A stretch of DNA of 63,425 nt, filler included, from Octopus bimaculoides (taxonomy: Eukaryota), in assembly GCF_001194135.2 (NCBI RefSeq). It is 5 parts of 4 records of this genome, joined end to end, with 100 filler letters (N's around TTAATTAATTAA, not from the genome) between each part and the next. Parts side by side here need not be neighbours in the genome. Positions count along the whole stretch, not along the records: positions 1 to 19,452 come from NC_068981.1; positions 19,553 to 51,165 come from NC_068996.1; positions 51,266 to 54,668 come from NC_068986.1; positions 54,769 to 60,512 come from NC_068996.1; positions 60,613 to 63,425 come from NC_069007.1. One strand, written 5' to 3'. The notes beneath the pieces were generated by a model that had not been told where the DNA came from, did not search any database, and saw only the letters and a list, made by a program, of their open reading frames with translations. The position numbers and the translations under genes were made by a program. This document shows positions 4,795 to 63,210 of the stretch, in pieces (within the stretch, counting starts at the first letter, position 1; each line of letters opens with the position of its first letter).

Positions 4795-5032
4795 TATATA
4801 TTAGAAAAAATAATAATTAGGTACTCAGATGGCTGGATGGTTGTATATTTACAGATTTTTATTCATGTCACGTTTTATAAATTAGCGCTTTCACCTAGTC
4901 TTTCACCTAGTTTGATAACCCTACAAGACTAGGTGAAAGCGCTAATTTATAAAACGTGACATGAATAAAAATCTGTAAATATACAACGATCCAGACATCT
5001 GAGTACCTGATTATTATTTTTTCTAATATATA
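4795..5032. repeat. Fold-back element, 108-bp inverted arms, 22-nt spacer; probable PLE pseudo-LTR derivative
   Basis: 4795-4902 is the near-perfect reverse complement of 4925-5032; both arms carry GAAAGCGCTA. Confidence 0.85.
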
Positions 5033-6504
5033 TATAATTAAGTATTGAGATATTCTATTGACAATCCAATAATTTATTTATATATATTTTTTTCTAATAT
5101 ACATAATCACGGTTCCGTTATATATATAGTCACTTCAGGGTCTTTTGGTTTAGAAAGAGACGAAATTCCGTGTGAAAGGAATATATATATATATATTGAT
5201 GCGACCGCCAATAAGCAAAAATAATGTTATGTCCTTATACCTCGATCTGGTGGGTTTGAAACCGTTTCTAGTTGGTCAGGGCATTGGTATTTCCTTCGTC
5301 CTGTCAACAAGCACAGTTATTTTTAGCGTAGGAGTGTGATCGCTGACCCTTTCCGGTCATCGAAAGTTTAGAAAAACAAGTTAGGAACTGTACTAAACTG
5401 ACCCAGCTTTGGAGTGGGGTAACGTAGCACTTTTGGGTACGGTGTCTCATAAATACGAGAGGATAGATTTGGGAATCGCAGTTGGTGTAAGCGGTCAGCC
5501 AGTGAAGATGGACAAGCAGTTGGCGTAAACAAAGTCATTGGATGAAGAACGCGAGCCGGTGTGAAGGCCAGTAGCCAGTGGAGAAGCAAGATGAACAGAG
5601 AGACTGACAGACAGAGGCTGAGAGAGAGAGAGGCTATTGTCAGAAGGTACCAGTCAGCAGAAATGGATAGAGTCTGAAAGAGAGAGGGACAGAGAGATGG
5701 GACTGTTGTGGCAGGCAAAAGATTGTAGTAGACTACGTTGGTCAGTTCTTGTCATTGTAGTGGGAGATTTGAAGGAAAGGAAATTCTTGCGGTGAAGGTT
5801 TGTTTGCATTTCTTTAAAGAAAAGTGTACTTGCGTTGTTATATGTTTTTGCAAAGAACTTTGTTAACTCTTGTTAATTGTGATATTAACTGGTTGAAAAA
5901 AAAGAAAAGAGAGAACTTTGTTGTTACATGTTGTTAAAAAGAAAAGAAAAACAAAAGAAGNNNNNNNNNNNNNNNNNNNNNNNNNNNNNNNNNNNNNNNN
6001 NNNNNNNNNNNNNNNNNNNNNNNNNNNNNNNNNNNNNNNNNNNNNNNNNNNNNNNNNNNNNNNNNNNNNNNNNNNNNNNNNNNNNNNNNNNNNNNNNNNN
6101 NNNNNNNNNNNNNNNNNNNNNNNNNNNNNNNNNNNNNNNNNNNNNNNNNNNNNNNNNNNNNNNNNNNNNNNNNNNNNNNNNNNNNNNNNNNNNNNNNNNN
6201 NNNNNNNNNNNNNNNNNNNNNNNNNNNNNNNNNNNNNNNNNNNNNNNNNNNNNNNNNNNNNNNNNNNNNNNNNNNNNNNNNNNNNNNNNNNNNNNNNNNN
6301 NNNNNNNNNNNNNNNNNNNNNNNNNNNNNNNNNNNNNNNNNNNNNNNNNNNNNNNNNNNNNNNNNNNNNNNNNNNNNNNNNNNNNNNNNNNNNNNNNNNN
6401 NNNNNNNNNNNNNNNNNNNNNNNNNNNNNNNNNNNNNNNNNNNNNNNNNNNNNNNNNNNNNNNNNNNNNNNNNNNNNNNNNNNNNNNNNNNNNNNNNNNN
6501 TATA

Positions 6505-6640
6505 TATATATTCTTTTACTTGCTTCAGTCATTTGACTGTTGTCATGCTGGAGCACCCCCTATTAGTCGAAGAAATCGACCCCTGCACTTGTTCTTTGTA
6601 AGCCTGGTGCTTAGCCTATCGGTCTCTTTTGCTGAAACAT
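6505..6640 (-). mobile_element. SINE family A tail
   Basis: cttttacttgcttcagtcatttgactg...atgctggagcac...ctatcggtctcttttgc matches other copies. Confidence 0.7.
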
Positions 6641-7204
6641 GCTGGCCACTGATAAATCATCAACTAATGATGTTATCCTATTTATGTATAAATATTATTC
6701 ATTCACTCCACAAACATGTTTGCTGCGGAATTATTCCGAGTAAATATGCACATGACTGAACTGGATGACGGGGCTTTTACTTCGTGTATATATGTGAAAT
6801 GCATGTATATATTCATATTTGTACGACTGTATAACTATAGGCATGTATATATAATTCTCATTTATTTACGATCGGTGTACTATACCGAAGATTGTAAAGC
6901 AATTTTAATATTGTAAAACATGAAATCTTATGATATAGAGTTGTCTACACTATTTTTATAAATTCTTTCTGTCCATTTTCCTCGCATACAGCCTTGTGTT
7001 AGACAGAGTAATAACTTACGTGGTTTGTAGTCGTTTGCCGTCTATTTCTAGCGTACAGGCGCTGTCCCTCCAGCGCCCTTTATTATAATTATATTTTTAT
7101 AATTATACTTTAAATATTAATTTAACCCATATGGTCTTTTTTGTACGTTGGCCACTGATAAATCATTAGCTAATGACTTTATCCTGACTATGTATATAAA
7201 AAAA

Positions 7205-7395
7205 ATAAATGCGCCCTTTTAAAGCCTAGCCAGGCTCATGGGCCCGGTTTCCCGGTTTCAATGGCGTATGTGTTCCCCAGCTGGACGGGACGCCAGTTCA
7301 TCGCAGCGTTACTCATTTTTGCCAGCTGAGTGTACTGGAGCAACGTGTAATGAAGTGTTTTGCTCAAGAACACAACGCGTCGCCCGTCCAGGTTA
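7205..7395 (-). mobile_element. SINE family C body/tail
   Basis: Reverse complement matches 16900-16990 (gagtaacgctgcgatg...ccagctgggg...ctaggctt) and carries the CORE-like segment. Confidence 0.65.
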
Positions 7396-8529
7396 AGGTT
7401 TGGATAAAGGTGTATAGTTATAGCTCATCCATTTAACACTGCGAAGTTTGGGAATAAGTACCAAACCCTGTCGGCTCTTTTCATTCAAAAGAAAATGAAA
7501 AAAAGAAAAGAAAGAAAATACGACGTTTAACCCAAGTTAGATTCGACCGAGTTGACATAATCACGTGCCCCACAGTCTGAATAGGTAAACCTGTGGGCTG
7601 ACTCGGTGTATTTACCTTTATTTGTCTACAGCGAGAAATTTTCTTCATGACAAAACAGAGTGAGTGGCTTTCTTGCGGGTTCGAATATGCCTCAAGCATA
7701 TTTGAACTGGTAACAAGTTTGTATTTATATGCATCATTGCTTAGCGCTGTCACTTCGCATAATCAAAAGTGTTCAAGCTGTATTTTCTTTTGTATTGGGT
7801 GATTTACCTTAAATCATCCTTGACTGAACAGACCTGTTATCAAAGACGCTCCTACCATGACCAGTCCGTCTTTTATTGAGGGCATCTATGATTATCTGAT
7901 AGTTAATCAAATTGGTAGTAGATGATATAAGCGAGATTTAGCTGCTTAATCACATAAAAATTTCCCCGTTAATTCGAAAGAAGATATCACTTGCAGAATG
8001 GCGAATCAATTAACTTATAACTCTCACACACGCACACGAACATTGGCCGTGTGCCTATATAAGAATTGTCATTGCATATTCAATTAGCGACTTAATTGTT
8101 TTACATGAAGACTGTCAAATTTCTCCCCCGGAGACATATGCATGCTGTGAAGGTAAACAACAGGAGTGAGCAAATAAACATTGACATATTTCTATTTTTA
8201 AAAATGTCTTTGTTGATGCGTTTAAATGCGAAGCGAACACAAGAAAGTACATATGATACTTACACGCCGCGTATTTATTTAAAGATCATACAATTTTTCC
8301 ATATATGTGCCGCGATGAGGCTGGGTGTCTAGATGGTCGTTCGACCTGTTAGAAATAGCAGCAAAATCTCCCGCAAATCAAACTTTGCTGTTGTACAAAT
8401 AAAAGGAAGGACACACTACATAACGTCTTTGTTCATTTTTAAAAATCGGTTTGGTCTGAAGGAAACGTTACAGTTACGGTCTTTGCCGGTCTTCCGCGAC
8501 CATCTATCTACACTGATACCGTAAATGTC

Positions 8530-9420
8530 CTGTCTGAATCAATGCAAGTTGATAGCAGCAGGAAAAACATGTCCAAGGAGAGAATTCCAGAAGGTCGACG
8601 TTCTAGGAAAGAAGGACAGGAAGGTAATGGTTAGTGATAAGGTTTGTGATAATGGTTAGTGGTAAGGTAATGGGTGATAAGAAAGGAAGAGATGAATGAG
8701 TTCGAAGTATCTAAGTAGATGGAACCCAAGAACAGCCAGTACCAAAAAGCAGAGGTCGTTATAGTAGAAGCGGAAAGGCAAAGAGGAAAGAATATGCCTG
8801 TGAGCAAGACTAAAGTGTACTCGTGGGCGAAATCGTATTATTTTTGTATTCTAAGATGTTCGTTTGTGTAGCTGCAGCACAGTCCCAGATGTGGAAGCAG
8901 TACTCTACTGATGATCTCCCCAAAGCTTTGAAACAGGCTCGTTGTTGAAGAGAGAGTGAAGTTTGATGTAGTTTACTTTTCTGGCTTTGAAAAAGCAGAT
9001 TAATCTTTGAGATGTAGTCTTTATTATGTTGAGAATGCATGTTCGTCAAAGAAATTTCAGTGATGATAAGGACTTGCACTTAAACTGAAAAGCAGTATCA
9101 CATTTAATCTAAACATGAACAACATACTGTTCAGGTTTAAGAGATAGCGTGAGGTGCGATAGAGTTACCTTGGTGTGCACAGTAACTGTATCGTTTTGCT
9201 TTTTGAACGAGTCAAAAATTGACATGACTCCATCAGAAGATACTTTCAAGGTTTTCTTTCATGAAGTTTATAAGGTATCTCGGTTGCATACTTAGGTACG
9301 GAAGATTAGAGATAAATGAGGGATGGTATCATCTGCATAGGGATAGGTTTGGAATGACGGCAAGAACATCATTGATGTTGGAAGGTAAGTGGGAGAACAA
9401 AACCTAAGGAATACAAGAAT
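8530..9420 (-). mobile_element. CR1/L2-type LINE RT C-terminal fragment, frameshifted
   Basis: YADD motif (tatgcagatgat on minus, 9328-9339) and the downstream 'VEYCFHIWDCAAATQTNIL' segment resemble CR1/L2 ORF2 C-termini; many stops. Confidence 0.65.
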
Positions 9421-9464
9421 TGATACTGTATGGATCAGACAGACAGACAGGCAGGCAGAGACAG

Positions 9465-10664: not shown

Positions 10665-10964
10665 NNNNNNNNNNNNNNNNNNNNNNNNNNNNNNNNNNNN
10701 NNNNNNNNNNNNNNNNNNNNNNNNNNNNNNNNNNNNNNNNNNNNNNNNNNNNNNNNNNNNNNNNNNNNNNNNNNNNNNNNNNNNNNNNNNNNNNNNNNNN
10801 NNNNNNNNNNNNNNNNNNNNNNNNNNNNNNNNNNNNNNNNNNNNNNNNNNNNNNNNNNNNNNNNNNNNNNNNNNNNNNNNNNNNNNNNNNNNNNNNNNNN
10901 NNNNNNNNNNNNNNNNNNNNNNNNNNNNNNNNNNNNNNNNNNNNNNNNNNNNNNNNNNNNNNNN

Positions 10965-11034
<70 letters not shown>

Positions 11035-13519: not shown

Positions 13520-13787
13520 ATCTTATGGTAAGAAGTTTCCTTCCCAACCACATGGTTCTGCGTTCAGTCCCACTGCCTGAGCAAGTGCCTTCTACTATAC
13601 CCTCGGGCTGACCAAAATCTTGTGAGTGGATTTGGTAGGCGGAAACTGAAAGAAGCCCGTCGGATATATATGTATATATCTATGTGTGTGTGTCTTTGAG
13701 GCTGTGCTTGTCCCCACCCTCTCCCATCATCACTTGACAACCGATGCTGATGTGTTTGCATCTCCGTACCTTAGCGGTTCGGCAAAG
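13520..13787 (+). mobile_element. SINE family A copy
   Basis: ccaaccacatggttctgcgttcagtccc...gtgagtggatttggtaggcggaaactgaaagaagcc, then microsatellite, then tail. Confidence 0.75.
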
Positions 13788-14058
13788 TGGATGAACCACA
13801 GAGGGATATTTTTCTCTTTTTACCAGTCAAATGAGATATGTGGGTATTTCTGTATGTATTTAATGGGGAGGAGTGAAAGATTTGCTAGCAAAATAAATCC
13901 ACCACCATCACCACACACCTCCATCCACATCTAACTACCATTCCTTCTATTCGCATCACCTTTCACTCCTCTCCATCAAATACACACAGAAATACCACAT
14001 ATCTTACTTCACTTTCAGACTGGAAAAAAGAGAAAAACATCCCTCTGTGGTTCATCCA
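13788..14058. repeat. Fold-back/MITE-like element with ~95-bp inverted arms
   Basis: 13788-13828 vs 14018-14058 are nearly perfect reverse complements (tggatgaaccacagagggat...ccagtc); the match continues inward to about 13879/13960. Confidence 0.75.
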
Positions 14059-14386
14059 ATAATGCTATATCGCCTGAACAAATGAATCAATGTTGATCAT
14101 CAACCGGATGCCGAAGGATACTACAGACTACACTGTAATCATCCCAGGAATATGGACTGTAATCTTAAACGTCATGTTGTTTGTGGAAACGCACGTAGCG
14201 ATAAATTAAATGTCTATAAATTCAATTCTAGGATTATTGTTATTATAATTATATTTATCCTACATTATATCAGTATAACTTGATGCAACGCCGAAAAACT
14301 GGCTCACTAGTCAGCATCATTAAACTGTGGCCGACATAATGCAATTATATATATATACACATACATACATGTATATACACATACAT

Positions 14387-14421
<35 letters not shown>

Positions 14422-14449
14422 NNNNNNNNNNTGTGTGTGTGTAATGATA

Positions 14450-14481
<32 letters not shown>

Positions 14482-14617
14482 AGCTGTGGCTGTTTATGTA
14501 TGTGTGTGGTTGGACATAGTATCGTTATATATATATAGTAAATTGATCTGCGTAAAATGTCAACAAAAAAAATTCTACCTCTAATGAGAGTCAATTATTA
14601 AGGTATGTTTGACTCCG

Positions 14618-14735
14618 CATGTATTACACGCGCTACTACTAGTTTCACAAACATGATGACCTTTATTTGTCATGTAGCGCCCGATGAACCTACTTGACAT
14701 GTACGTGAAACTATTAGTAGCGCGTGTAATACATG
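14618..14735. repeat. Inverted repeat, 38-bp arms, overlapping a hammerhead motif
   Basis: 14618-14655 vs 14698-14735 are reverse-complementary with 3 mismatches. Confidence 0.85.
14677..14723 (+). ncRNA. Minimal type I hammerhead ribozyme-like motif (U4C variant)
   Basis: GCGC-CCGAUGA-[AC.UAC loop GUA.GU]-GAAA-CUAUUAG-UA^-GCGC: helix I GCGC/GCGC, GUA cleavage triplet, quasi-palindromic helix III. Confidence 0.6.
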
Positions 14736-15535
14736 TGCAGTAGAACACATAATTTTATATACATATATATATATATATAATAATATAAATAATATATAAT
14801 TATATGCATATATACATACATATATGTATATACCTACATATATATGTATATATACATGCATATATGGGTACAGAACATCAAAAAACGTGAACAAAATGAG
14901 AAACGAGAACATAAAAAACAAAAACATACNNNNNNNNNNNNNNNNNNNNNNNNNNNNNNNNNNNNNNNNNNNNNNNNNNNNNNNNNNNNNNNNNNNNNNN
15001 NNNNNNNNNNNNNNNNNNNNNNNNNNNNNNNNNNNNNNNNNNNNNNNNNNNNNNNNNNNNNNNNNNNNNNNNNNNNNNNNNNNNNNNNNNNNNNNNNNNN
15101 NNNNNNNNNNNNNNNNNNNNNNNNNNNNNNNNNNNNNNNNNNNNNNNNNNNNNNNNNNNNNNNNNNNNNNNNNNNNNNNNNNNNNNNNNNNNNNNNNNNN
15201 NNNNNNNNNNNNNNNNNNNNNNNNNNNNNNNNNNNNNNNNNNNNNNNNNNNNNNNNNNNNNNNNNNNNNNNNNNNNNNNNNNNNNNNNNNNNNNNNNNNN
15301 NNNNNNNNNNNNNNNNNNNNNNNNNNNNNNNNNNNNNNNNNNNNNNNNNNNNNNNNNNNNNNNNNNNNNNNNNNNNNNNNNNNNNNNNNNNNNNNNNNNN
15401 NNNNNNNNNNNNNNNNNNNNNNNNNNNNNNNNNNNNNNNNNNNNNNNNNNNNNNNNNNNNNNNNNNNNNNNNNNNNNNNNNNNNNNNNNNNNNTATATAT
15501 ATATATATATATACATACATACACACATATATATA

Positions 15536-15567
<32 letters not shown>

Positions 15568-15649
15568 ATAATATAAATAATATATAATTATATGCATATA
15601 TACATACATATATGTATATACCTACATATATATGTATATATACATGCAT

Positions 15650-16285
15650 ATATGGGTACAGAACATCAAAAAACGTGAACAAAATGAGAAACGAGAACAT
15701 AAAAAACAAAAACATACAAAACGAACATTTTTTCGAACAAGGAAAGAAACGAGACAGGCAACATAAAGAACATTTCCATCATCAGTTGTCCCCTGTTTTA
15801 TCTACTTTCGAAAGTAGGGACAAGACGCGACGTCGTTAAAACAGTCCTCGCAAAACGAATTAAATAAAATTTGGGATTTTTTGCGGAGGGTTAAAGTGGT
15901 TACAAAAACAGGACAGTAAGAACAAAACAGTAAAAACAAATGGTGAGGGCTGTTAAGCCATGACGAGCTGAAGTAGTGAACGCTGGAAAAACGAGCTTTG
16001 AAAAGAGACAAGCAAAGCACGTCTTGTCTTTAGGAAGGAATTGGAAGAAAGAAAGATAGATAGCCGTTGGTCACGTGTGAGCAACGAGAGCGTCAAGGAG
16101 GAAGAGTGAGAGAGGGAGAGGGAACGGTGAAGAGGTGAGGAGAAGAATAGGGAATGGGTGGGAGAGAAAAACAGAAAGGAAGAAGAACAAGTGAGGGAGA
16201 TAGATAGAATAGAGATAGGATGTAGAGTGCGCATCGGAATTATTAAAATAAAACTTACTTGGAAAAGGATGTGTGGTGTTCAATC
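15650..16285. mobile_element. Unclassified interspersed repeat
   Basis: Complex non-coding block flanked by imperfect ~50-bp AT-rich direct repeats (15566 and 16287), with a 16-bp palindrome at 15802-15817; family not assignable. Confidence 0.3.
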
Positions 16286-19915: not shown

Positions 19916-20555
19916 TCTTCTTATTATTATTATCATCATTATTATTATTATCATTGTTATTATTATTAAAACCGTCACATTATCACATAGCTGTAATTAG
20001 CTTCACGTTCCCGTTCGTGGGACAGTTGTATTCATCACAACTGTCCGACAAACTGGAACGTGATATTGTGTGTGTGTGTGTGGAACTCACTGCGTGCGCG
20101 CGTGTGTATGATTCTGTGTGTGTGTCTCTATGTGTGTGAGTGTGTGAGTGTGTGTGTGTGTGAACAATATCAATTCTAAAGGTGCGAAATTGTAATGATG
20201 TTTTTGCCTTTCTCCCACGCTCTTTCTCTCTCTTTCCCTCCCTAATACTGTACTTCTTTCTTCGTTCTGACTTTCTGTCCTCTCGCCTCCAGTACTTCAG
20301 ATCACTCTCATTGTTTATTGTATATATATGTTTTTGTTTGTTGTGTTTATTTGGTCATTGTCCGGTACATTCGTTAGCTATTCCTAGTGGCCTTTCGCCA
20401 CTGTTGCCACTAAAAGTGAATAATATCAACGTTAAACGTGCGTAATTTTAAGGATTTTTTGGGCATACTCTGATGAGGAATAAGCTACAAATCTTCTGTT
20501 TATGTTTGTGTAAAAGTTTCGATTTGTTCTGATTTAGTTAAATTTGTTAATATAT

Positions 20556-20923: not shown

Positions 20924-21776
20924 TACGAGGTTTTATCAATAAGTATCCGGACTGTTGCCGCATTAACGAAGCTAAAGCACACAGAGTAAAGCCGCTTGGC
21001 ACAGATTGACTTTGGACGCTGTTGTGCATGTGCACTAAGTTCTACTGTTCTGGCTTACATCCGCTGTTTACAGCAGCGCTTGGAAGGAACGTGTATAGCG
21101 TGTGATCGTCGCGTTGACCATGACAAAGAAAGTTGTGATGGCGATATTACAGGAAGTGTATGGAGAGGAATGTATGAGACGAACACAAGTGTACAAGCGG
21201 TTCAAAACCTACGTTTAAAGATGGCTGAAAAATGTCGATATTAACGAACGTTCTGGGAGATCCGCAACCAGCAGAACTAAGAAAAACATCGCATATATGC
21301 GTGCAGCTGTGATGGGAATTCGTTGAATCACCATCCGTGAGTTATCAGAGTATGTGCAGATTATTCACAGTTCAGTTGGGTGTGAGACGCGTATCTTCCA
21401 AGTTTGTACCAAAATTGCTTTCAGCTGACCAAGAATACACTCGGGTTTCAGTTGCACAAGTTATTCTTGATTGTGTCTTGACCGCAAAAAATCTTTTTGA
21501 AAACTTTCCATAAGCATCTGAGCAGGTATCGCCAAGCGTTTGGTAAAATTTGATGTAGATTCTCTGCACAACTTTTGTTGTCATGATCAATACGACGATC
21601 ACACGCTACACATGCTATTTCCAAGCTCCACTTTAAACAGCGAAAGTGAGCTAAGCTGTTAAAATTTAGTGCGAATGCACAGCAGAGTTCAAGGTCGATT
21701 TGTTCCAAGTCGCCTCACTCTGCTTTAGCTTCGTTACTATAGCAACTGTACGGACACTTATTGATCACTTCACATA
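20924..21776. mobile_element. Mariner-derived fold-back element made of two inverted 5' ends
   Basis: TA|tacgagg...atcaataagtatccggac at the left, with its inverted counterpart at about 21745-21776. The ~200-bp arms extend into the ORF start; HTH-region peptides (VYGEECM, SGR, VSSKFVPKLLS on plus; QRIYIKFYQTLG on minus). Confidence 0.75.
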
Positions 21777-22944: not shown

Positions 22945-23439
22945 TAAGACAAATAAAAACGCTATGAAAATTCACCGTTGAATAAAGGGAAATTACTCCA
23001 ATAGGCATGGGGAAAGTAAAACTTCTTTCATAGAATCCGCATATGCACACATATATAAATACACATACACGTACGCACATACACATATGTATGTATATAT
23101 ATATATACACATACTCACACGCGTGTACATATACATACAAACAAGCATACACACACACACACACACACGCACACACATATATATATATATATATATGACT
23201 ACGCATACACGTACATACATACGCATATATACCCATGCACGTACCACCATGCTCATATACACATCTCTACACGCACTCACATATACATACACGATTATCC
23301 AAAACGTAGCTTATACGCACATATACATACATACGCGGATATACAAAACGTAGTCTATACGCACATGCACATACGTACGCGGATAGACGTATATACGAAT
23401 AAATACACACACACACACATATATAGTTGCAATTTACAA

Positions 23440-23590
23440 AAACAAGACAAAACAACAGACGAAGTCGGGTGTGTAAACAACAAACAGATGTATTAGTTTA
23501 ACGCTTGGGAAGTGAGAAAATCTTTTACGTTTCGAGACTACGCTCTTCAAAGAAAGAAACACGGAAATAAACAGAGAAAATAAAATAAAG
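23440..23590 (-). mobile_element. Short PLE-like repeat carrying a degenerate hammerhead (same family as 25740-25880)
   Basis: Minus: tcttt-ctttgaa-gagcgtagtctc-gaaa-cg-ta-aaaga, followed by the same downstream sequence as the 25.8-kb copy. Confidence 0.6.
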
Positions 23591-23611: not shown

Positions 23612-24000
23612 ATATGAAGAATAATAATAAATGGAGCAAAACGTATATAATCAAAAAGTTATTTTAATTCCTACATATGTTTCAAAATATATGTGCACCC
23701 TTCTTCAAAGAAGTAAGAGGTGCTGGAATTGCACATAAATTCATCGTCAGGGAACCAACATACTAAAGCAAGACATGCATTAAATGCTAAGGTTGCGTGC
23801 GGGTTATAACATTATATAACCTTAGCATTTAACGCATGTCTTGCTTTTGCATGTTGGTTTCCTGACGATGAATTTATGTGCAATTCCAGCACCTCTTACT
23901 TCTTTGGAGTAGAATGCACATATATTTTGAAACATATTTAGGAATTAAGAGACCTTATTGATTATATGCGTTTTGCTCCATTTATTACTATTCTTCATAT
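23612..24000. repeat. Fold-back element, 183-bp inverted arms, 23-nt spacer; probable PLE pseudo-LTR derivative
   Basis: 23612-23794 vs 23818-24000 are highly similar reverse complements; each arm carries CTGACGA...GAAACATAT. Confidence 0.9.
23669..23754 (-). ncRNA. Type I hammerhead ribozyme motif with palindromic helix III
   Basis: Minus: UUCC-CUGACGA-long helix II (AUGUGCA/UGCACAU)-GAAA-C-AUAU-G-UA^-GGAA. The core and helix I are canonical; the right-arm copy has GUA changed to UUA. Confidence 0.65.
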
Positions 24001-24155
24001 TTACTCAAGATACATCACTTTAACTTGTTATGTCTACCCATTAACCGGGTATGATATCCCAATTTTTCGTGTAATTTTTGCTACCCTGGTAACTATTAAC
24101 ATATTTTCATTATCGAAGTTTTTTTCAACTGAGATAATATTAATATATACATAAA

Positions 24156-25730: not shown

Positions 25731-25750
25731 TACATTCCTTGTCTCCGTAT

Positions 25751-25787
25751 TCTTTCTGTTGAAGAGCGTAGCTCGAAACGTCAAAGA
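25751..25787 (+). ncRNA. Minimal hammerhead-like motif with CUGUUGAA core variant
   Basis: UCUUU-CUGUUGA-A-GAGC(GUA)GCUC-GAAA-CG-UC^-AAAGA: perfect helix I and II, GUC triplet, ACGU palindromic helix III. Confidence 0.55.
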
Positions 25788-25882
25788 CTTTCCGTATTCC
25801 CGAGCGTCATACTAATATATACTTTTGTTATTTACACCACCTGTCCTCGTCTGTTGTTATTATTTGTATATTCTCCCATATA

Positions 25883-25985
<103 letters not shown>

Positions 25986-26310: not shown

Positions 26311-27800
26311 CAGACTCGTCCAAAATTATTAGGCCACCCCAATGTTTTGGGCTTCTGCTATCACAATGTATATCTTTTTAGTATTCATATGCATTAGTTT
26401 TAATATCTGGTTTACCCTCCTTTAACATCAATTACCAGTTTCATACTATACATATGCAACCAATCACAAGTAAGACAAACATTCAAAATTAACTTATGTT
26501 TCCTTGATTATTTCAGAGTTTTATGCTAAAATACATTGTAGATACAATTAGCAATCAGTAAAATGCCTACAACAAGGGAGTTGAGTGAGTGTGAGCGAGG
26601 TCATATCGTAGCTCATCATGAAGCTGAAATGTTCTCAATGTGAGGTGCAAAAGACTCTCAAGCACTTCAGAGAGACAAAAGATGTCAATACAATACAAAG
26701 AACTGGCAGAACAAAAGTTACATCACCTCGTGGTGATAGATCCATCACCTCGTGGTGATAGATCCATCATCCGTCAGTCGCTCAGAAACAGAAGAAAAAC
26801 ATCGTCGGAGCTCTTTGCAGACTTCAATAAGGCAAGTACTTCACAAATATCAACCAGAACTGTTAGAAGAAGATTTGTAGAGTACGGTCTGAAAGGCTGT
26901 AAAGCCAGGAGGAAGCCATGGGTTTCTGAAGCGAATATGGAAAAAACGTCTTCAGTGGGACAAAAACCACTCAAATTGGACCAGTGAGCAATGGTCAAAA
27001 GTCACATGGTGTGATGAAAGTAACAATGATGTAAGATAGTACATGTATTTAATCAACATATAAACTGGTTTGTTGCCCAAAATATAAAAAAAAAAGTATC
27101 CAACATAAAGCTAATATTATTTTTATGTTTTTCCGCAGGTTTTCGGTACATCTAGTGCAAATTTCGTGCGTCGCAGAGTTGGGGAAGCATTTAAGGCTGA
27201 ATGTCTGGTACCAACCGTGAAACATCGGAGTGGTTGTATCAGGGTATTGACCTGCATGTTTTGCCACATGACCCGGAGAAATGTTTTTATGTCAGGGAAG
27301 GATAAATTCAGCTACCTATGTTTCTTTGTTATCAGATGTTTTAGAGCCATTAATTGCTAAATTGCATCCAAGAGTGTCGAAAAATAGTGTTGTATACAAT
27401 TTAGATCATACAGCAAAGAATACTCATCAATGGTTTGAGACACAGAGTATTTATCCCATGGACTGTCCAGCTCAAAGGTCCGATCTAAATCCAATCGAAC
27501 ACCTATGGGGGAACTCTTGGTCAAGCTATCAGAAACATAACAGTTAAAAGTAAAGAGCATTTGTAACAAAAGTTGAGAGAAGAATGGAGTAAAATTGCAC
27601 CTAGAGCCTGCAAGGAATTAGTTGATTCAGTGCCTAACCGTATTAAAGCGGTAACTGATGCTAAAGGAGGGTCAGCTAGATATCAAAACTAATGTATATT
27701 GTGAAATATACCATAATCTACCATGTCCACGAATTTCATTAACATTGAGATAGCAGAACCCCAAAACATTGGGGTGGCCTAATACTTTTGGCCAAAGCTT
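26311..27800 (+). mobile_element. Tc1-family DNA transposon, near full length, defective transposase with apparent intron
   Basis: TA-flanked TIRs (ccaaaa[t/g]tattaggccaccccaatgttttggg at about 26320-26368 and 27743-27792). ORF from MPTTRELSECERG via RTVRRR, ARRKPW, WCDES, PTVKH, DLNPIEHLW to KAVTDAKGGSARY; frameshifts include a 22-bp duplication at 26721-26764. Confidence 0.9.
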
Positions 27801-40778: not shown

Positions 40779-40826
<48 letters not shown>

Positions 40827-41371
40827 NNNNNNNNNNNNNNNNNNNNNNNNNNNNNNNNNNNNNNNNNNNNNNNNNNNNNNNNNNNNNNNNNNNNNNNNNN
40901 NNNNNNNNNNNNNNNNNNNNNNNNNNNNNNNNNNNNNNNNNNNNNNNNNNNNNNNNNNNNNNNNNNNNNNNNNNNNNNNNNNNNNNNNNNNNNNNNNNNN
41001 NNNNNNNNNNNNNNNNNNNNNNNNNNNNNNNNNNNNNNNNNNNNNNNNNNNNNNNNNNNNNNNNNNNNNNNNNNNNNNNNNNNNNNNNNNNNNNNNNNNN
41101 NNNNNNNNNNNNNNNNNNNNNNNNNNNNNNNNNNNNNNNNNNNNNNNNNNNNNNNNNNNNNNNNNNNNNNNNNNNNNNNNNNNNNNNNNNNNNNNNNNNN
41201 NNNNNNNNNNNNNNNNNNNNNNNNNNNNNNNNNNNNNNNNNNNNNNNNNNNNNNNNNNNNNNNNNNNNNNNNNNNNNNNNNNNNNNNNNNNNNNNNNNNN
41301 NNNNNNNNNNNNNNNNNNNNNNNNNNNNNNNNNNNNNNNNNNNNNNNNNNNNNNNNNNNNNNNNNNNNNNN

Positions 41372-41405
<34 letters not shown>

Positions 41406-45182: not shown

Positions 45183-46214
45183 TACGACTGAAAAGCAAAT
45201 GGAGTAGACGTAGCCGAAAGAATATTGATCATAGGTTAGCTAAACAACAAAAACAACAGACGCAGCAATAACGACAGCAGCAACGAACTACACAACAATA
45301 CAACAACCGTTATCCAACTTTTCTTTCCGCGGTTTCCAAGACATTTTTTAATGTTTGAAAACATTTTATTATTATTTCCAAATTTCCTCTTATTTTCATG
45401 TTATGTTTTATTTATCTTTTTCCTTATTTTTCCTCTTTTTCTTATGTTTTGTTTCTTTTTCAACACTTCCTCGCTTACCTCACCAGTGCAGTTTCCCATA
45501 ATTACTGAATGCTATTTCTGATTGCACTTTTGAAACACTTTAACATGCTTTCTCATATATTGCCGTGTTTTGTTTTTTTGTTTTTTATCTTTTCTGTTTA
45601 CAATTTTAAAACTGTAAAAATAAATTTAAAGAATACATTCGAAATCATGAACAATCTCCTTGACCACTAAATTCATCATACTTTCTTTTACTATTTGTTA
45701 TATCTAAATGATTCATTACAGTATCCCTCTATTCATCTATCATGGCTAACCAAGCATTAACGAGGAAAACGTCATTTTCTATATTCATTGCTTGCAAGTC
45801 ATTAAAATTTGGCAATTACAAAAACCAGAGTACACAGAAATACTGTAAACTATCAGGTTCTTTTGTTTTTGTTCTTTTTTTGTCTTATTTTTCTTTAAAT
45901 TTAATTTGCGCGGCTGCCAAACTCCACCTAATGAATCTTAAGAGCGTTTTTAACTTTATTAATCCGGGGAGTGATTTCAAAACAAGACAATTGTCTGATA
46001 AACTATTCTTCGTGTTGGCAGCCATAAACAAAAACTGTTCACTGAGATTTCAGAAGGAAAATACATCTGCAGAAAGCTGTAGCGGACTGGACTGAATGTC
46101 TTGTAGATTTCCGTTTCGTTCATATATTGTATAAGTTCATATTTCACCGGATTAAAGAAACAATATCGATTAATTTCGATTTCAAATTTTGGTACAAGGT
46201 CAGCAATTTTGGGT

Positions 46215-46605
46215 GGAAAAGATAAGTCGATTACATCGAATCCAATACACAACTGGTACTTATATCATCAACGAAAGAATGAAAAGCAAGTCCACCTCAG
46301 CGAAATTTGAAATCAGAAAGAAGAGACAAACGAAATGCGCTAAGCATTTTGACCGGTGTACAAACAATTCTGCCAGCTTACCACCTTAATATATTGATTA
46401 ATATTGGTGTCAAATTTTAAGGCGGTAAGCTTGCAGAATCGTTAGCACACCAGTGAGATTTTGTCTGTCTTTTCGTTCTGAGTTTCAAAATTTCGCTGAG
46501 GTCGACTTTGCCTTTCTTCCTTTCGGGTTCGTTGAAATAAATACCAGGCGAGTATTGGGGACAATGTAATTGACTTACCCCCCCAAAATGCTGGCCTTGT
46601 GCTTT
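46215..46605. mobile_element. Two SINE family D copies head-to-head
   Basis: Minus copy 46215-46388 and plus copy 46418-46605, separated by a ~30-nt AT spacer. Confidence 0.8.
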
Positions 46606-50890: not shown

Positions 50891-51086
50891 ATATTGAGAA
50901 AAAAAAGTTGGCAGAATTTTGGAAAAAATCTTTTTACGTCTTCATTATTATTAGCGCTTTCGTACCTCTGTAAAATTAGTCAAATACAATTGTATTTGAC
51001 AAGTTCTAGGGAGGAACAAAAGCGCTAATAATAATGAAGAAATAAAAGAAGTTTTTTTTCCAAAATTCTGACTTTTTTCTCAATAT
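50891..51086. repeat. Fold-back element, ~75-bp arms, with central 22-bp perfect palindrome
   Basis: 50891-50967 vs 51012-51086; gtcaaatacaattgtatttgac at 50979-51000; GAAAGCGCTA on minus at 50952-50961. Confidence 0.8.
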
Positions 51087-51134
51087 TCAATTCTGACATC
51101 ACACCCAACACTATGCACACACACATATATATAC

Positions 51135-52521: not shown

Positions 52522-53684
52522 TGTATGTTTGCACCTAAGTATCGATGTATCCATGTATATACGCAGGCATATTTCTATCCATGCATGTACGGACGTAAGT
52601 ATGTATGGATGCATGAAGGTATGTATTCATAGCAAACGTAGCTTGTTGCTTTGCACTGAGAGGCGTGCTATTCCGATATTTTACACTCCGGTAGCTCTTC
52701 AGCCTTTCACATAAACTAATCGAGGGTTCTTAACTCGCCTACATTGTAGAACTGATACAGGTTTTATAACTTTCGAAAGTCCACTGAAATTTTTCTAAAT
52801 AATTCCATGGCGTGTGATAGCTGACTCCAGTTTCCTATCACTCCATGTCTTGTGTATTAGTTTAAATTGATCATTTGATCACTGCTAAGATGACGCTTTT
52901 TTTGGTTACGAACTTTTTAACAAGCTGATATTAATGGCAAATGTATAATAAGTGGTTTTCATTACACGAAAGAATAGATAATCCTTCGAAGCCGAATTTA
53001 CGGAATTCGATGCCACCTCATTCTGTGGATATGTATATATGCATATATGCATGCAAGTTTATATGTATGCATATATACATATATACATACATGCATATAT
53101 ATATATATATATATATANNNNNNNNNNNNNNNNNNNNNNNNNNNNNNNNNNNNNNNNNNNNNNNNNNNNNNNNNNNNNNNNNNNNNNNNNNNNNNNNNNN
53201 NNNNNNNNNNNNNNNNNNNNNNNNNNNNNNNNNNNNNNNNNNNNNNNNNNNNNNNNNNNNNNNNNNNNNNNNNNNNNNNNNNNNNNNNNNNNNNNNNNNN
53301 NNNNNNNNNNNNNNNNNNNNNNNNNNNNNNNNNNNNNNNNNNNNNNNNNNNNNNNNNNNNNNNNNNNNNNNNNNNNNNNNNNNNNNNNNNNNNNNNNNNN
53401 NNNNNNNNNNNNNNNNNNNNNNNNNNNNNNNNNNNNNNNNNNNNNNNNNNNNNNNNNNNNNNNNNNNNNNNNNNNNNNNNNNNNNNNNNNNNNNNNNNNN
53501 NNNNNNNNNNNNNNNNNNNNNNNNNNNNNNNNNNNNNNNNNNNNNNNNNNNNNNNNNNNNNNNNNNNNNNNNNNNNNNNNNNNNNNNNNNNNNNNTATAT
53601 ACATGTGTTGTTGCTGGCATCCTTTTGTCTCGGGAGACAATGGAGTTGCGCATAAAATAATCTAGTCTGGTTTTTACATTTCAT

Positions 53685-55866: not shown

Positions 55867-55897
<31 letters not shown>

Positions 55898-56563: not shown

Positions 56564-56598
<35 letters not shown>

Positions 56599-56907
56599 GT
56601 AAAGAAGAACAGTTTAGATGGAGCAGAAGCGATGGCATTTTCAATGAGGTCTGTCCAGATGATGTTCTATTCTTGTAGGTTCTTATGACAATGGTGAGTA
56701 TGTGAACGAGGAGGGGATTTTCACGGGGCCCCAGTTGCCACAAGGCTGGCCGAGTCAGCCAAGCGTGCAGTGAGATTATTTAAGTGGACGCAGTAACAAT
56801 GTTGTAAGGCTTTAAGGTAATCTCATCTTGTTTATCAAGAGGTACATTATTTAATCTTCTCCTCATACACATATAAAGAAATATGCTCACGCAACTAAAC
56901 ATAGAGA

Positions 56908-56910
<3 letters not shown>

Positions 56911-56991
<81 letters not shown>

Positions 56992-57010
56992 TATAGACAG
57001 AGAGAGAGAG
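56911..57010. repeat. (AG)n/(AGAC)n compound microsatellite
   Basis: Directly visible. Confidence 0.95.
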
Positions 57011-58180: not shown

Positions 58181-58239
<59 letters not shown>

Positions 58240-58569
58240 ACGTACGTACGGTTAATTAATATTTCAACTGAAGCTAGATGTACGTTTACATTCTCCATAA
58301 TTATTCTCAAAATATTCTTTGTTATTTAGAATCAGCGATTTATTGGTAGTGGAAATATGCAAAACAACAACACTAATTTACCTGTCTATCTCGTTACCGT
58401 TTCTTTCTCTTGTTTCTTACTTTCTCTCCTGACTTTCGTTCTGTCTTTTAATTTGTATACATTTTGCCTATTTACCATTCTTTTCCAGCTCCATTTAGTT
58501 ACTTTTTCTTGTCTTTGACTCCTTCCTCTGTTTCTCTTTTAATCTTTCTATCGATCGATCTCTCAATTT

Positions 58570-58570
58570 C

Positions 58571-58645
<75 letters not shown>

Positions 58646-58965
58646 GTCTGTCTGTTTGTCTGCTAGCCTACCTGCATTCATGCATGCCGGCTTACCTCTC
58701 TGTATGTCTGTGTATCCAATTTCTCCTACCTTTTCCTTACTTTCTGTGTGTAGGAGGGGGTACGCGCGCGTGTATATATGTATGTATGCATGTATGTCTG
58801 TATGTATGTATGACCGTATGTATGCATATACATGTATGTATGTATATACATGTGTGTATGTATGTATGTATGTATGTATGTACGTACGTACGTACGTATG
58901 TATGTATGTATGTATGTACGTATGTATTTACGTATTTACGTATTTACGTACATATGTATATATAC
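58570..58965. repeat. (TCTA)n and (TATG/TACG)n compound microsatellite region
   Basis: Directly visible. Confidence 0.9.
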
Positions 58966-59809
58966 CTACTATTGAGATTAAACATCTGTAAGTCAGAAGC
59001 TGCAAGGAAAAAGATCGTTGGCAGGAAGGGTATTTCAGACGTAAGGAGGAAATGGTAAAGGTGATTAATGGAGGGCCAGGAAGGAGAGACTTGGTTTTTA
59101 TACGAGAGAAAGGGAAGCAGATGTGTTAGATGGGCTTCACTTTGAGGAGATATGAAGATATCTAGTTCAGATGAGTAGAGACAGTTGTAACAGTGATAGA
59201 AAATAAATGGAGAAGGTACAGTATACCTGTGAGCCAGAGACGTCTGCAATTTGATTTCACTTCCCGCCTAGGTCATTTATGCCTTTCGCCCTTTCCCGGT
59301 CGATAAAATATAGTACGAATTGATTACTGTGATCGATGGAATTAACCAACGAGCCGAAGTTCCTCAAAATCTTTTTTGGGGGGCTATTCCAAAATTCGAA
59401 GAATGTTTTGTTGTTTTTTTTTGTTGTTTTTTTTTGTTGTTTTTTTTTCCATTTCCGACAATTAGTGTTAGTATAATTAACTGAAATAGCAACAATCCAA
59501 ACTTGATCCTACGAGAAATGTATTTTGTAGTAATTCACTCATGTCTTTTGTAAATAAATTCAAGAACGGTTCCATTTTCCCCCTCTCTATGTATTCAGTA
59601 ACAGAGTAAAAAGGAATTGTCTTCGCATATTGATCGTTTTAAAAACTTAGTCTGTCTTGAGATTTCTCCAGAGATCTACGAGATTATTTTCTTTGTAGAT
59701 ATCAGTATAGAAAGCTTGGTTTTTATTTCAACTATATCGACACAAACAGTAAACATTTCACTTTTATGTCTAAAAAAGAAATCATAGCTATGAATTAATT
59801 TCTTACACC

Positions 59810-60290
59810 AAATACGTGGGCCCCACATTTGAGAGAAAGGAACGGTCGGTTATTTTCACCCAGTACTTGATGGAGTTTTATTTTTGTCGATCCCGAAGGA
59901 ATAAAATGCAAAGTGATTTCGTCTGGATCTGAACGTTTGTCTTTTAATTATTTCAGTCATTAGACTGACTGCTACCATGGTTGGGTACTGTCACGAAGGT
60001 TTTTAGTCGAAAAAAGTCGATTCCAGTACTTATGCTTTCTTGTTTTGTTTTGTTTTTGTTTCTTTTTTTAAAGTCTGGTACTTATTCTATTAGTTTCTTT
60101 TCTCCTGAATCTAAGTTAGGCGGATGTAAGCAAACCAACATTGGTTGCCAAGCAGTGGTGGAAGACAAATAAGCACACACATACACATATAAGTGTCTGT
60201 CGGGCTGAGGCTACAGTAGAAGACACTCGACCAAAATTCCACTCAGTGAGGGCGGGGGGACCCGGAATCATGTAGCTGGCAAACAAATTT
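59810..60290 (-). mobile_element. SINE family D fragment followed by decayed SINE family A
   Basis: gatcccgaaggaataaaatgcaaagtga (family D, reverse); cagtcattagactg...gaggctacagtagaagacac (family A, reverse). Confidence 0.6.
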
Positions 60291-60612
60291 TTTACGCCTA
60301 TTAAATGAAACCTACTCTGCTGGGCATCCAACTGGGGGTATTTATACTTACCACTATAGTACCGAGTAAAGAACAGGAACAAAACCAAGGTCTCAAGAGA
60401 AAACATGGCAGCATTTCAAAAATATTTTTTACTTTTAACAAAACATAATATTTTAACAGTTATCCATTTTTCTATTTCTTAAAAAATATATTTGTTCTAG
60501 ATATTTGTTGATNNNNNNNNNNNNNNNNNNNNNNNNNNNNNNNNNNNNNNNNNNNNTTAATTAATTAANNNNNNNNNNNNNNNNNNNNNNNNNNNNNNNN
60601 NNNNNNNNNNNN

Positions 60613-61085
60613 AAACGTCGCAGTAGAACTCTGGGTTGACAGTCTGGCCCCGGAAAACAAATTCTCGATGCACAATATCATATTTTCGGGAGTGACACTC
60701 GCGCAGGTTTTCCAGATCGCCCATCGACTTCCAGAGATGTTCTTCCGCTTTTAAAGTGCCACTCGAAACATTGCGTACGACCCATTGCCTCGTCGCTGTA
60801 AGCTTACCGAAGCATGATCAATGTCTCTGTTGCAGACATCTTAAGTTTAACGCAAAATTTTATGTTGGCTCTATGTTCCAACTTCCTGCCCATCGCAAAA
60901 TTCGCAGACTACAGCATACACGTGATCACAAAAACACAAATTTCACAACTTGCGAACACAGCAATGTCACTTGGCACACTGCCTCATGAAGGTCACTGCT
61001 AACTCTCACTATGTGTGCAACCGTGTGCTGCCATCTGTTGGCGCGCTACAGAACTAGTCCGGGAACTTTTAGATATTACTTCGTA
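60613..61085 (-). mobile_element. Mariner 5' portion, internally deleted
   Basis: TIR tacgaagtaatatctaaaaagttcccggac on minus; MGRKLEHRANIKFCVKL...FEWHFKSGRTS...GRSG, then IVHREFVSRGQTVNPEFY in another frame. Confidence 0.8.
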
Positions 61086-61172
61086 TGTAACGTACTTAAC
61101 CTGTACCTTTGTACTAACCGTGTTGTATAATAATTATGTACCTAAGTGACATGATGTCGCGTTCGTTTCTAT

Positions 61173-61523
61173 CTGAGGTTTCTCAACGATTTTTTAAACT
61201 ATGGACCCCTTTGATTACTATTTTATTCTGGTGGACCCCCATAGCCATCTAATGTTGAAAAACTAGCTTTAGAGAAACTTCTTTCAATTTTTTTTTCCAC
61301 ACATTAACTCTGGTAAGTTGAATTATGTAAACTTAGAGACAGAAGCCTAGCTGTTTCTTGTAATACATACCAATACATACATCCAAAGCGAAATATTTTC
61401 AAGGCCCCTTAAAATATTATTGTGGCTCCCCAATTTACTATTTTGTTACGTCCCTCCCCACCACCACCACCAAATCTTATATGGACCTTCATGCGCCTTA
61501 TGGACCCTGGTTGAGGACCACTG
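61173..61523. mobile_element. hAT (Charlie-like) non-autonomous element
   Basis: Degenerate TIRs ctgaggtttctcaac / gttgaggaccactg with subterminal tggacccc motifs; TSD not clean. Confidence 0.55.
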
Positions 61524-61761
61524 GTCTATAAGCTGAATTCAAAATGGCGCCAATGCAGATTTCGTGCTTCGTTTATCGGGTACGGTATAATAACGTACCA
61601 CTCGTCAACTGCTGTCACTGTAATCGACTTTATTCTCCCCGCCGAATGTATTAGCATGTAAATCTTACAAATGAATACATACATACATACATACATACAT
61701 ACATACATACATAACTTTTAACTTTTTAAAAAATATATTACTGTTTTTAATTCATAACTGG

Positions 61762-63210
61762 ATATACGTATATATAAAATTAATATAAACAGTAAGTTGC
61801 AATGTTTCACCGAAAAAGACAATTATAATTGTCACTAAATGTGACTAGGTGTTAAGAGAAACATGCATTGTATAACAGTGGGATTGTTATAACGGCTGAT
61901 TGGGTACCACTTTTATAATGTGGTATATTATCTTATTTATATGGTTTCTACTGGGATAGATAAATAGTTTATTCCTTGAGTAAAAATCTACAATGATAAA
62001 CCCGTCACTTATAACTTGATTATAAGTATTATCACTATACATAAATCTCAAATCAAGCTACATAAATGCCCTAGTGAAATATATATATATCAAGACGCTT
62101 AAGGTCATGTTGAATGTGCATCTATGTTGAAGAAATGTTCGCGTTCTTTTTCACCGCAATAAGAACAGTTTCATAAATGCAGAAGTAAATTTCATTAACA
62201 GGTTGGAAAGAAGTGAAGAAAAAGAAAATATTTACTACATTGGTTTATTTATGTATACTATTAAACCTTGGAAGAGGCATTATGCCGGTAATAAGCACAC
62301 GCACTGGTTCGGTCCTAACCAGTGCGTGTGTTTATTACCGGCATAATGCCTCTCCCAGGGTTTAATAGTATTTCTTTCAACACACGTATTCACATCAAGA
62401 ATCTTGCACACCAAATACACATACAAAATTATTTATGTATATTTAATATTTACAGTACATTTGGAAGTAAGGCACTTTGTCGTAGAGAGATACGACATAA
62501 ATGTATTACTACCTAATTCCTTCGTACTAACTATCAGAGTTTACACAACAATTTCAAATAAGTCTTGTTGGGTTTGAGTAATTGACATGGCACAAAAATA
62601 GCCAACATCTCAAAGGAGTGAGCGTCGTGGAGTTCAGTAACAAGCAACGATCACTAGGGTGAGTGTTGTGGAGTCTATTGACAACCAACGAACACTGATT
62701 AATTTCCCCAAAATCGGGGTTTTTATAACTGTTCATATCTGAATTCTAAGAACTGTATTTCGTGAAAGAATTCTCTTTGTCGAAAGTTTAGAATTCAAAT
62801 ATGGGCAGTAATTTTAACCAATGGGAAGCCAACAATTATACTTGTTCGGGCAACAGGACCATTACGTCATATTACCACCTTTTACGACTTGCTTGCTGTT
62901 CGCTACAATTGCTAGAAATAAGAGCTAAAATACTCTAATGCTGTAATTAATGCACATGAATGAAAACATACTCTAACAGGAACCTGAATCGTCCGAAAAT
63001 TTTCTCGGTCGGCATTTTTCGGACGCTTATGGTCCGTTAGTGTATATGTTTTCATTCATCTGTCTTAACTACAGCATAAGGGCATTTTAACTCTTATTTC
63101 TAGCAATGTAGGTGTTTCTTAACACCCTAGTCACATTTAGTGAGAATTATAATTCTCTTTTTCGGTGAAACATTGCAACCTGCTGTTTATGATTTTATAT
63201 GTATGTATAT
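61762..63210. mobile_element. Long palindromic MITE interrupted by a ~1.04-kb insertion
   Basis: 61785-61870 pairs with 63105-63190, and 62908-63000 pairs with about 63013-63107. The left arm is split at attg (61867-61870 / 62908-62911). Confidence 0.75.
62255..62371. repeat. Near-perfect hairpin, 55-bp arms, 7-nt loop
   Basis: 62255-62309 vs 62317-62371; one mismatch and two G:T pairs; loop cggtcct. Confidence 0.9.

What the first reader, a model, noticed from the sequence alone, without database searches (positions are those of the whole stretch)
4795..62371. Recurring architecture: unrelated fold-back elements built around dimer-type hammerhead ribozyme motifs
Seen: five inverted-repeat elements with different arm sequences (4795-5032, 14618-14735, 23612-24000, 50891-51086, 62255-62371). 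Four contain GAAA-[palindrome]-UH (AGCGCU twice, ACUAG/UUAGU, ACAUAUGU) and the fifth turns at CGGUC. Three decayed PLE GIY-YIG fragments lie in the same window. Established: PLE pseudo-LTRs encode minimal type I hammerheads with palindromic helix III that cleave as dimers, and PLEs form inverted pLTRs on insertion. Inference: these are either inversion products nucleated at the ribozyme, or a class of short non-autonomous, ribozyme-processed palindromic retroelements. Symmetric arms would give one self-cleaving motif per strand and long dsRNA in a lineage known for heavy A-to-I editing.
Basis: partly seen in the sequence, partly recalled or inferred. Interest (0 to 1): 0.72.

Follow-up and report, generated by a model that had tools for sequence, protein, structure and literature searches.

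The report
Penelope fold-back insertions, ribozyme-cut chimeras
These five hairpins are back-to-back insertions of the ends of Penelope-like retrotransposons, a known structure; elsewhere in the genome, pieces from different families are joined exactly at their predicted ribozyme cut sites, which likely records that these ribozymes cut RNA in the living animal.

Summary
All five fold-backs are real. Each is the 3' end (pseudo-LTR) of a different repeated Penelope-like element (PLE) family; long copies of all five families run into a GIY-YIG endonuclease. One arm carries the PLE 'tail' and the other is an inverted, tail-less, 5'-truncated copy, a published PLE insertion form. Junctions differ between copies, linear copies predominate in the tail-anchored samples, and element 5 has a 13-nt target-site duplication, so a self-propagating palindromic class is not supported. 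Four families carry a type I hammerhead within the arms (two mostly with the known U3-A8 core); element 5's lies outside the hairpin. In element 1's family, 5' ends pile up at the ribozyme's 5' edge (27 of 66), not at the cut site. The new result came from follow-up: a retrozyme-like family's 5' half is joined to three PLE families' 3' halves (including those of elements 1 and 4) at both predicted cut sites, and there is a probable fourth chimera. This likely records in vivo cleavage followed by ligation or a template jump, for which the papers I read report no evidence.

The parts
4765..4900 (-). E1 tail-bearing arm: 3' end of a PLE pLTR plus ~30-nt tail abutting (TA)n; 5'-truncated inside helix II, so it lacks the catalytic core
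4912..5032 (+). E1 inverted tail-less arm with a near-complete hammerhead: U3-A8 core 4912-4918, helix II, GAAA 4935-4938, palindromic helix III, predicted cut 4944/4945
14537..14675 (-). E2 tail-bearing arm (older, lower-copy PLE family)
14676..14750 (+). E2 inverted arm; hammerhead core 14681-14687 with U4>C decay, GAAA 14707, predicted cut 14719/14720
23612..23818 (-). E3 tail-less arm next to (TA)n; canonical core at 23750-23744, 60-nt helix II, predicted cut 23672/23671
23819..24140 (+).
50891..50985 (-). E4 inverted tail-less arm; helix III at 50961-50952, core and helix II decayed
50986..51117 (+). E4 tail-bearing arm; U3-A8 core 50996-51002, G12>A decay, predicted cut 51027/51028, tail to ~51117
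62258..62428 (+). E5 fold-back plus 58-nt tail; no hammerhead inside
62245..62257 (.). E5 left copy of the 13-nt target-site duplication
62429..62441 (.). E5 right copy of the 13-nt target-site duplication
25750..25920 (+). Copy of PLE-like family F7 (variant hammerhead, predicted cut after 25782); this family's 3' half is a chimera partner elsewhere (L351)

Best explanation
Each hairpin is a truncated Penelope-like insertion made of a tail-bearing pseudo-LTR and an inverted tail-less copy, likely formed anew at each insertion when the element's enzyme copies its RNA from two internal start sites; the ribozyme motifs are carried along with the pseudo-LTR, and those of the element 1 and 4 families likely cut RNA in vivo.

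Shown: arms are 3' ends of GIY-YIG-linked families; one-sided tails; varied junctions; target-site duplications in E5; a pile-up of 5' ends at the ribozyme's 5' edge in E1; inter-family chimeras at predicted cut sites.

Inferred: (1) Both nicked target strands prime cDNA, one at the tail end and one at the tail start, and the two join through short microhomology or an imperfect palindrome; fold-back of a single cDNA is the alternative. (2) The pile-up marks the RNA's 5' end (a pLTR promoter start) or a stop site helped by that palindrome. (3) Cleaved RNAs (2',3'-cyclic phosphate and 5'-OH) are occasionally joined across families, by RtcB-type ligation or a reverse-transcriptase template jump, and then inserted.
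For: Family size: first-look candidates 1837, 60, 1313, 720 and 1493 for E1-E5 (40 scored each).

Endonuclease link: continuous family sequence leads to a GIY-YIG in E1 (L155, L136, L190), E2 (L070, backed by L075 and L065), E3 (L019 and 11 others listed), E4 (L230, L238) and E5 (L118, L124). Pfam GIY-YIG hits E 0.0006 and 0.0016, just under the gathering score, for 2 of 3 fragments scanned.

Tail-anchored E1 sample (70 of 171 exact matches): 21 flagged as fold-backs, centres all different. 20 of 25 flagged inverted arms stop 27-38 nt short of the tail end.

E5: shared flank of 10 nt or more in 9 of 14 fold-backs (5 in non-simple sequence) against 9 of 182 cross-pairs.

5' ends at -11..+4 of core position 3: 27 of 66, 4.1 expected, P about 1e-15.

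Chimeras: all 17 purine-next loci among 744 F6 motif matches were read; 5 continue into foreign sequence, 0.66 expected, P 6e-4. Three partners are PLE 3' halves starting at their own predicted cut: L270 (E1), L351 (F7), L418 (E4; junction in both arms of a fold-back). L455 is a probable fourth.

Literature: inverted truncated copy plus tail (PMC8557442); two RT start sites bounding the tail and extension of both strands (PMC11167929).
Against: Twin priming and single-cDNA fold-back were not separated; later deletion of the hairpin tip could mimic asymmetric arms. My arm-versus-arm identity test crashed after one row.

One E5 junction recurs in 6 matches, about 5 loci; it sits on a 7-nt microhomology, but re-mobilisation is not excluded.

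RNA reads from 3 runs of one study show no pile-up of ends at the cut site or at the hotspot (low, apparently unstranded coverage). No listed read or contig bridged the L128 chimera junction (314 pieces not shown).

No chimera with E3 was found (10 loci; 20 of 25), and no reciprocal chimera among 100 of 120 listed F6 3' halves.

Some E1 subfamilies carry A13>C or a weak helix I, so not all would cleave. L351 could have used a 3-nt microhomology if its donor was of the UC subfamily. Hotspot offsets were partly curated by hand (one value taken), and several lie in TA microhomology.
Confidence: 0.85

Rival explanations
1. A class of short non-autonomous palindromic retroelements that are transcribed, ribozyme-processed and re-inserted as hairpins.
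For: One E5 junction recurs at about 5 loci with different flanks. Fold-backs make up about 30% of tail-anchored E1 copies. Opposite-strand joints appear in RNA reads.
Against: All 21 flagged E1 centres differ. The recurring E5 junction has a 7-nt microhomology, and its left ends fall at or near the site where other junction types end. Each strand holds only one sense ribozyme, and it is buried in the hairpin (49 kcal/mol penalty). E5 hairpins have no ribozyme.
Confidence: 0.06
2. MITE-like DNA elements or post-insertion palindromes formed by DNA repair, with chance ribozyme-like motifs.
For: Many copies sit in (TA)n. TIR-bounded elements exist in the window (20935-21765, 26320-27791).
Against: One-sided tails, 10-13-nt duplications, continuity with GIY-YIG ORFs, and full hammerhead motifs (2 window hits against 1 in 20 shuffles).
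Confidence: 0.03
3. The fold-backs are PLE products, but the chimeras arise by DNA recombination or template switching within shared hammerhead consensus, without any cleavage.
For: Hammerheads share GAAA and U16.1. Internal deletions starting at the same F6 site use 3-nt microhomology (L312, L353, L369). L351 might share 3 nt with its donor.
Against: In L270 and L418 the crossover lies after H17, where the partners share no base, and it matches both cut sites. Four other F6 copies end at the cut against non-ribozyme DNA (L335, L350, L360, L372).
Confidence: 0.12

Closest known systems
EN+ Penelope-like elements with inverted 5'-truncated pLTR and tail (Craig et al. 2021, PMC8557442; passages read)
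   Same: C-terminal-type GIY-YIG upstream of a hammerhead-bearing pLTR, inverted truncated copy at the 5' end, one-sided tail, (TA)n targets.
   Different: These are extreme truncations holding only pLTR ends. Tails range from about 30 to 140 nt against the 30-40 bp described. Clades were not assigned by a tree.
Minimal type I hammerheads of metazoan PLEs (Cervera and de la Pena 2014, PMC4209133; parts 1-2 of 4 read)
   Same: Palindromic helix III, short helix I, U3-A8 core variant; that paper already notes opposite-strand pairs 100-700 bp apart as likely truncated PLEs, and proposes cleavage followed by ligation.
   Different: It reports no in vivo evidence. E3's 60-nt helix II is far longer than the 7-8 bp described. 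Cross-family chimeras are not in the parts I read.
Anolis Poseidon PLE in vitro (Frangieh et al. 2024, PMC11167929; parts 1-2 of 4 read)
   Same: Two internal RT start sites define the tail, both target strands are cut and extended, and the ribozyme is protein-assisted.
   Different: It found cleavage unnecessary for insertion in vitro and no reads at the cut site; here genomic junctions fall on cut sites.
Non-LTR retrozymes (PMC7229834, passages; bioRxiv 10.64898/2026.07.22.740005, part 1 of 5 and passages)
   Same: Family F6 is a ~357-nt circularly permuted unit with a canonical type I hammerhead and PLE-like ends and inversions.
   Different: The five window elements are pLTR fragments of coding PLEs, not retrozymes. 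F6 is mostly dispersed (a tandem pair seen in 2 loci).
U6/LINE-1 chimeras made by RtcB ligation (PMC6789731; abstract and outline read)
   Same: A cyclic-phosphate RNA joined to a 5'-OH retroelement RNA and then retrotransposed.
   Different: Here both ends would be ribozyme products; ligation and template jump were not distinguished.

Membership tests
EN+ Penelope-like element | GIY-YIG endonuclease ORF upstream of the pLTR, same strand | tested here: met
   All five families have copies continuous with a GIY-YIG fragment; Pfam hits just under the cut-off for 2 of 3 scanned
EN+ Penelope-like element | Telomerase-like reverse transcriptase in the same ORF | not tested
   Loci reach only 1.5 kb from the match; no full-length copy was fetched
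EN+ Penelope-like element | 5'-truncated copies with an inverted pLTR and a one-sided tail | tested here: met
EN+ Penelope-like element | Microsatellite or AT-rich targets; target-site duplication where discernible | tested here: met
   E1 tails mostly abut (TA)n (part of the output cut); E5 duplications of 10-13 nt
Type I hammerhead ribozyme | Core C3/U3-U-G-A-N-G8/A8-A, GAAA, UH with helices I and II | tested here: met
   E1 and E4 tables (26 of 70 and 12 of 23 copies parsed); E2, E3 and E5 by inspection. Most window copies are decayed, and one E1 subfamily has A13>C
Type I hammerhead ribozyme | Palindromic helix III kept by covariation (dimer form) | tested here: inconclusive
   Double change preserving the palindrome in F6; palindromes present in E1-E4, but no such covariation was counted there
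Type I hammerhead ribozyme | Self-cleavage after UH | not testable with these tools
   Indirect only: chimeras at the predicted sites; RNA reads show no end pile-up
Self-propagating palindromic element or MITE | Copies share one junction and symmetric ends | tested here: not met
   21 different E1 centres; asymmetric tails; one E5 junction at about 5 loci
Non-LTR retrozyme (the five elements) | Short non-coding tandem unit, no ORF link | tested here: not met
   Families extend into endonuclease ORFs

The most novel reading that the evidence does not exclude
PLE and retrozyme hammerheads cleave in the germline and their products are joined across families at the cut sites, by RtcB-type ligation or template jumping, and then inserted by PLE enzymes. 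The genome thus holds a fossil map of true cleavage sites and a route by which new pLTR and retrozyme combinations arise. The pile-up at the ribozyme's 5' edge would mark the RNA start, which explains why most insertions are ~160-nt solo pLTRs and hairpins.
Probability: 0.65. Interest if true: 0.65.

Novelty: new member of a known kind. Interest (0 to 1): 0.47.

Why it matters
The hairpins themselves are ordinary PLE debris. But the role of PLE hammerheads is stated to be unclear (PMC8557442), to lack in vivo evidence (PMC4209133), and to be dispensable in vitro with no reads at the cut site (PMC11167929). Cross-family junctions at both predicted cut sites give a simple genome-only assay for which ribozymes cleave and where, usable in any animal with several PLE families. 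They also support the proposed cleave-and-rejoin step, and they show that U3-A8 variants are likely active.

Tried and rejected
Rfam scan: no hammerhead among the rows shown, only microsatellite-driven miRNA hits. A strict CUGANGA scan missed E1 and E4 because of the U3-A8 core.

No RNA holder was listed among indexed runs. Raw RNA reads (3 runs, 1 study, about 6% of each read) gave low two-strand coverage with no end pile-up; A>G and T>C differences cannot be called editing because reads come from many diverged copies. Laying contigs and reads on the L128 chimera gave no listed bridging piece.

Chimera searches with no new find: E1 3' half with a pyrimidine H17 (20 matches against 29 in the control, only L128), E1 5' half (5 loci), E3 5' half (10), E3 3' half (20 of 25 read), F7 3' half (7, only L351), E1 3' half after GAAAC (2). 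The native family of L455's 5' half was not found in the loci held.

A fixed upstream exon as the cause of the hotspot was rejected: the flanks vary. RNA structure stalling is disfavoured, because it would stop the enzyme at the ribozyme's 3' edge (inference).

Earlier scan findings were not available. Paper supplements were not seen; they may list these families or such junctions.
Full report
Setting. The window is a pack of five stretches from a 2.34-Gb, microsatellite-rich genome. I take it to be an octopus; that label is inferred from recalled genome features and comes from no call. E1 and E2 lie on contig C1, E3 and E4 on C16, and E5 on C27.

Observation. All five inverted repeats exist, among 15 hits spanning under 1.5 kb. 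Four have GAAA, a perfect palindrome and H, with a per-arm chance of 0.004-0.064. A full hammerhead scan allowing U3 cores gives 2 window hits against 1 in 20 shuffles; the strict scan finds E3's left arm with a 60-nt helix II. Three decayed GIY-YIG fragments are present. E5 has no hammerhead in its hairpin.

What the arms are. Each arm matches a repeated family (60 to 1837 first-look candidates, 40 scored each). In every family one arm continues into a tail that the other lacks. Long copies of all five families continue, on the same strand, into a GIY-YIG fragment (Pfam E 0.0006 and 0.0016, below the gathering score, for 2 of 3 fragments). The reverse transcriptase was not reached. This is the arrangement described for PLEs: an inverted 5'-truncated copy and a tail at one end (PMC8557442, passages). 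Opposite-strand ribozyme pairs and the U3-A8 core are already reported (PMC4209133, parts 1-2 of 4).

Are the hairpins a family of their own? I sampled E1 by its tail alone: 70 of 171 exact matches, taken in contig order. 21 were flagged as fold-backs, one of them a gap artefact, and one more was visible by eye; all centres differ. 20 of 25 flagged inverted arms end 27-38 nt before the tail end; three of the others are low-complexity artefacts. In E4 about 5 of 23 tail-anchored copies are inverted; in E3 one other fold-back was among 40 scored. E5 fold-backs are flanked by duplications: 10 nt or more in 9 of 14, five of them in non-simple sequence including the window copy, against 9 of 182 cross-pairs. 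One E5 junction recurs in 6 matches, about 5 loci, on a 7-nt microhomology. The hairpin fold beats the ribozyme fold by about 49 kcal/mol in E1. So the hairpins most likely form anew at insertion. Published in vitro work shows a PLE protein cutting and extending both target strands from two internal start sites that bound the tail (PMC11167929, parts 1-2 of 4), which fits two cDNAs meeting in the middle. Fold-back of one cDNA is not excluded, and my arm-identity test failed to run.

Where the turn lies. After dropping 4 gap-cut copies, 27 of 66 E1 5' ends fall at -11..+4 of core position 3, with 4.1 expected (P about 1e-15; offsets partly hand-curated). Only 3 fall at the cut site (0.7 expected; two of them ambiguous). 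E4 shows a weaker cluster (about 8 of 23 by eye). In E2, 4 of 8 flagged inverted arms start at -4, in a sample biased by its query. E3 and E5 turn elsewhere. A short imperfect palindrome overlaps this spot in E1, E2 and E4. I favour an RNA 5' end there, helped by microhomology; this is untested.

The unexpected result. One E1 copy (L128 = L270) is preceded by the 5' half of another family's hammerhead (F6), joined exactly at both predicted cut sites with no shared base; 29 of 30 F6 loci in that sample continue natively. F6 is a ~357-nt circularly permuted, retrozyme-like unit whose helix III palindrome covaries. Of 744 F6 motif matches, all 17 followed by a purine were read: 10 point variants, 2 internal deletions and 5 foreign continuations, with 0.66 expected from the background break rate (P 6e-4). 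Three foreign partners are 3' halves of ribozyme-bearing families that start at their own predicted cut: E1 (L270), F7 (L351; a 3-nt microhomology is possible) and E4 (L418). L418 is itself a fold-back with the junction in both arms, so both were copied from one chimeric template; its direct arm lacks one AAT unit and its inverted arm has one mismatch. The other two end on unique DNA or a non-ribozyme repeat. Among 22 pyrimidine-next loci, 2 more end at the cut. Among 14 E4 3' halves with altered helix III, L455 follows a complete hammerhead 5' half of an unidentified family, a probable fourth chimera.

Against this reading. Searches centred on E3, on the E1 5' half and on reciprocal F6 chimeras found none. 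RNA reads show no end pile-up, and laid contigs listed no piece bridging the L128 junction. An assembly error at both cut sites without shared sequence seems unlikely (inference).

Mechanism and precedent. Hammerhead products carry a 2',3'-cyclic phosphate and a 5'-OH (established). RtcB joins such ends in U6/L1 chimeras (PMC6789731, abstract) and circularises retrozyme RNA in vitro (PMC7229834, passages). A template jump from one cleaved RNA to another gives the same DNA. I found no report of cross-family junctions at PLE cut sites in seven searches or in the parts read, including a 2026 preprint (10.64898/2026.07.22.740005, part 1 of 5 and passages). The library lacks most subscription papers, and supplements were not seen.

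Verdict. The finding as written is a known PLE insertion form in new families, and the proposed palindromic element class is unlikely. The follow-up gives likely in vivo evidence for PLE ribozyme cleavage in two of the five families and a simple genomic test of an open question. Interest 0.47.

Noticed in passing
L128/L270 (G000:C7:62678437-62678620), L351 (C6:22845700-22845880), L418 (C17:8391470-8391680), L455 (C19864:185020-185130): Chimeras joining one family's hammerhead 5' half to another family's 3' half at the predicted cut sites; L418 is a fold-back with the junction in both arms.
   Followed up: yes
L250, L360, L372, L402: F6 is a ~357-nt retrozyme-like unit (744 motif matches) with PLE-like ends; several inverted arms end exactly at the cut site, as if primed on a cleaved RNA end.
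   Followed up: partly
   Followed up: no
window 62903-63218 and 61754-61870: Fold-back with a one-sided tail, and a second tail copy in opposite orientation; likely another PLE family.
   Followed up: no
window 20003-20063, 13788-14058, 46194-46600: Other inverted structures with no hammerhead hit; 46194-46600 is two copies of an abundant dispersed repeat in opposite orientation.
   Followed up: no
window 20935-21765 and 26320-27791: Elements bounded by terminal inverted repeats, likely Tc1/mariner-type DNA transposon remnants (label recalled).
   Followed up: no
window 23419-23558 (-) and 25750-25920 (+): Two copies of abundant family F7 with a variant hammerhead core (U in place of A6 by my reading) and a 4-nt palindromic helix III.
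   Followed up: partly
window 23672-23750 (-); L001-L028: The E3 family hammerhead has a 6-bp helix I and a conserved 60-nt helix II domain, far longer than described minimal PLE hammerheads.
   Followed up: partly
L156-L225: E1 subfamilies differ in ribozyme integrity: one has A13>C, one a longer palindrome with mismatched helix I; helix I strands co-vary between two subfamilies.
   Followed up: partly
window 40795-41405: The long 'inverted repeat' reported by the repeat finder is an assembly gap flanked by (TA)n, an artefact.
   Followed up: yes
window 15012-15564 and 53043-53595; 13664-14865 region: A 553-nt, 97% inverted match between two different stretches of the pack, and local duplications around 14450-15660; possible recent repeat or assembly duplication.
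   Followed up: no
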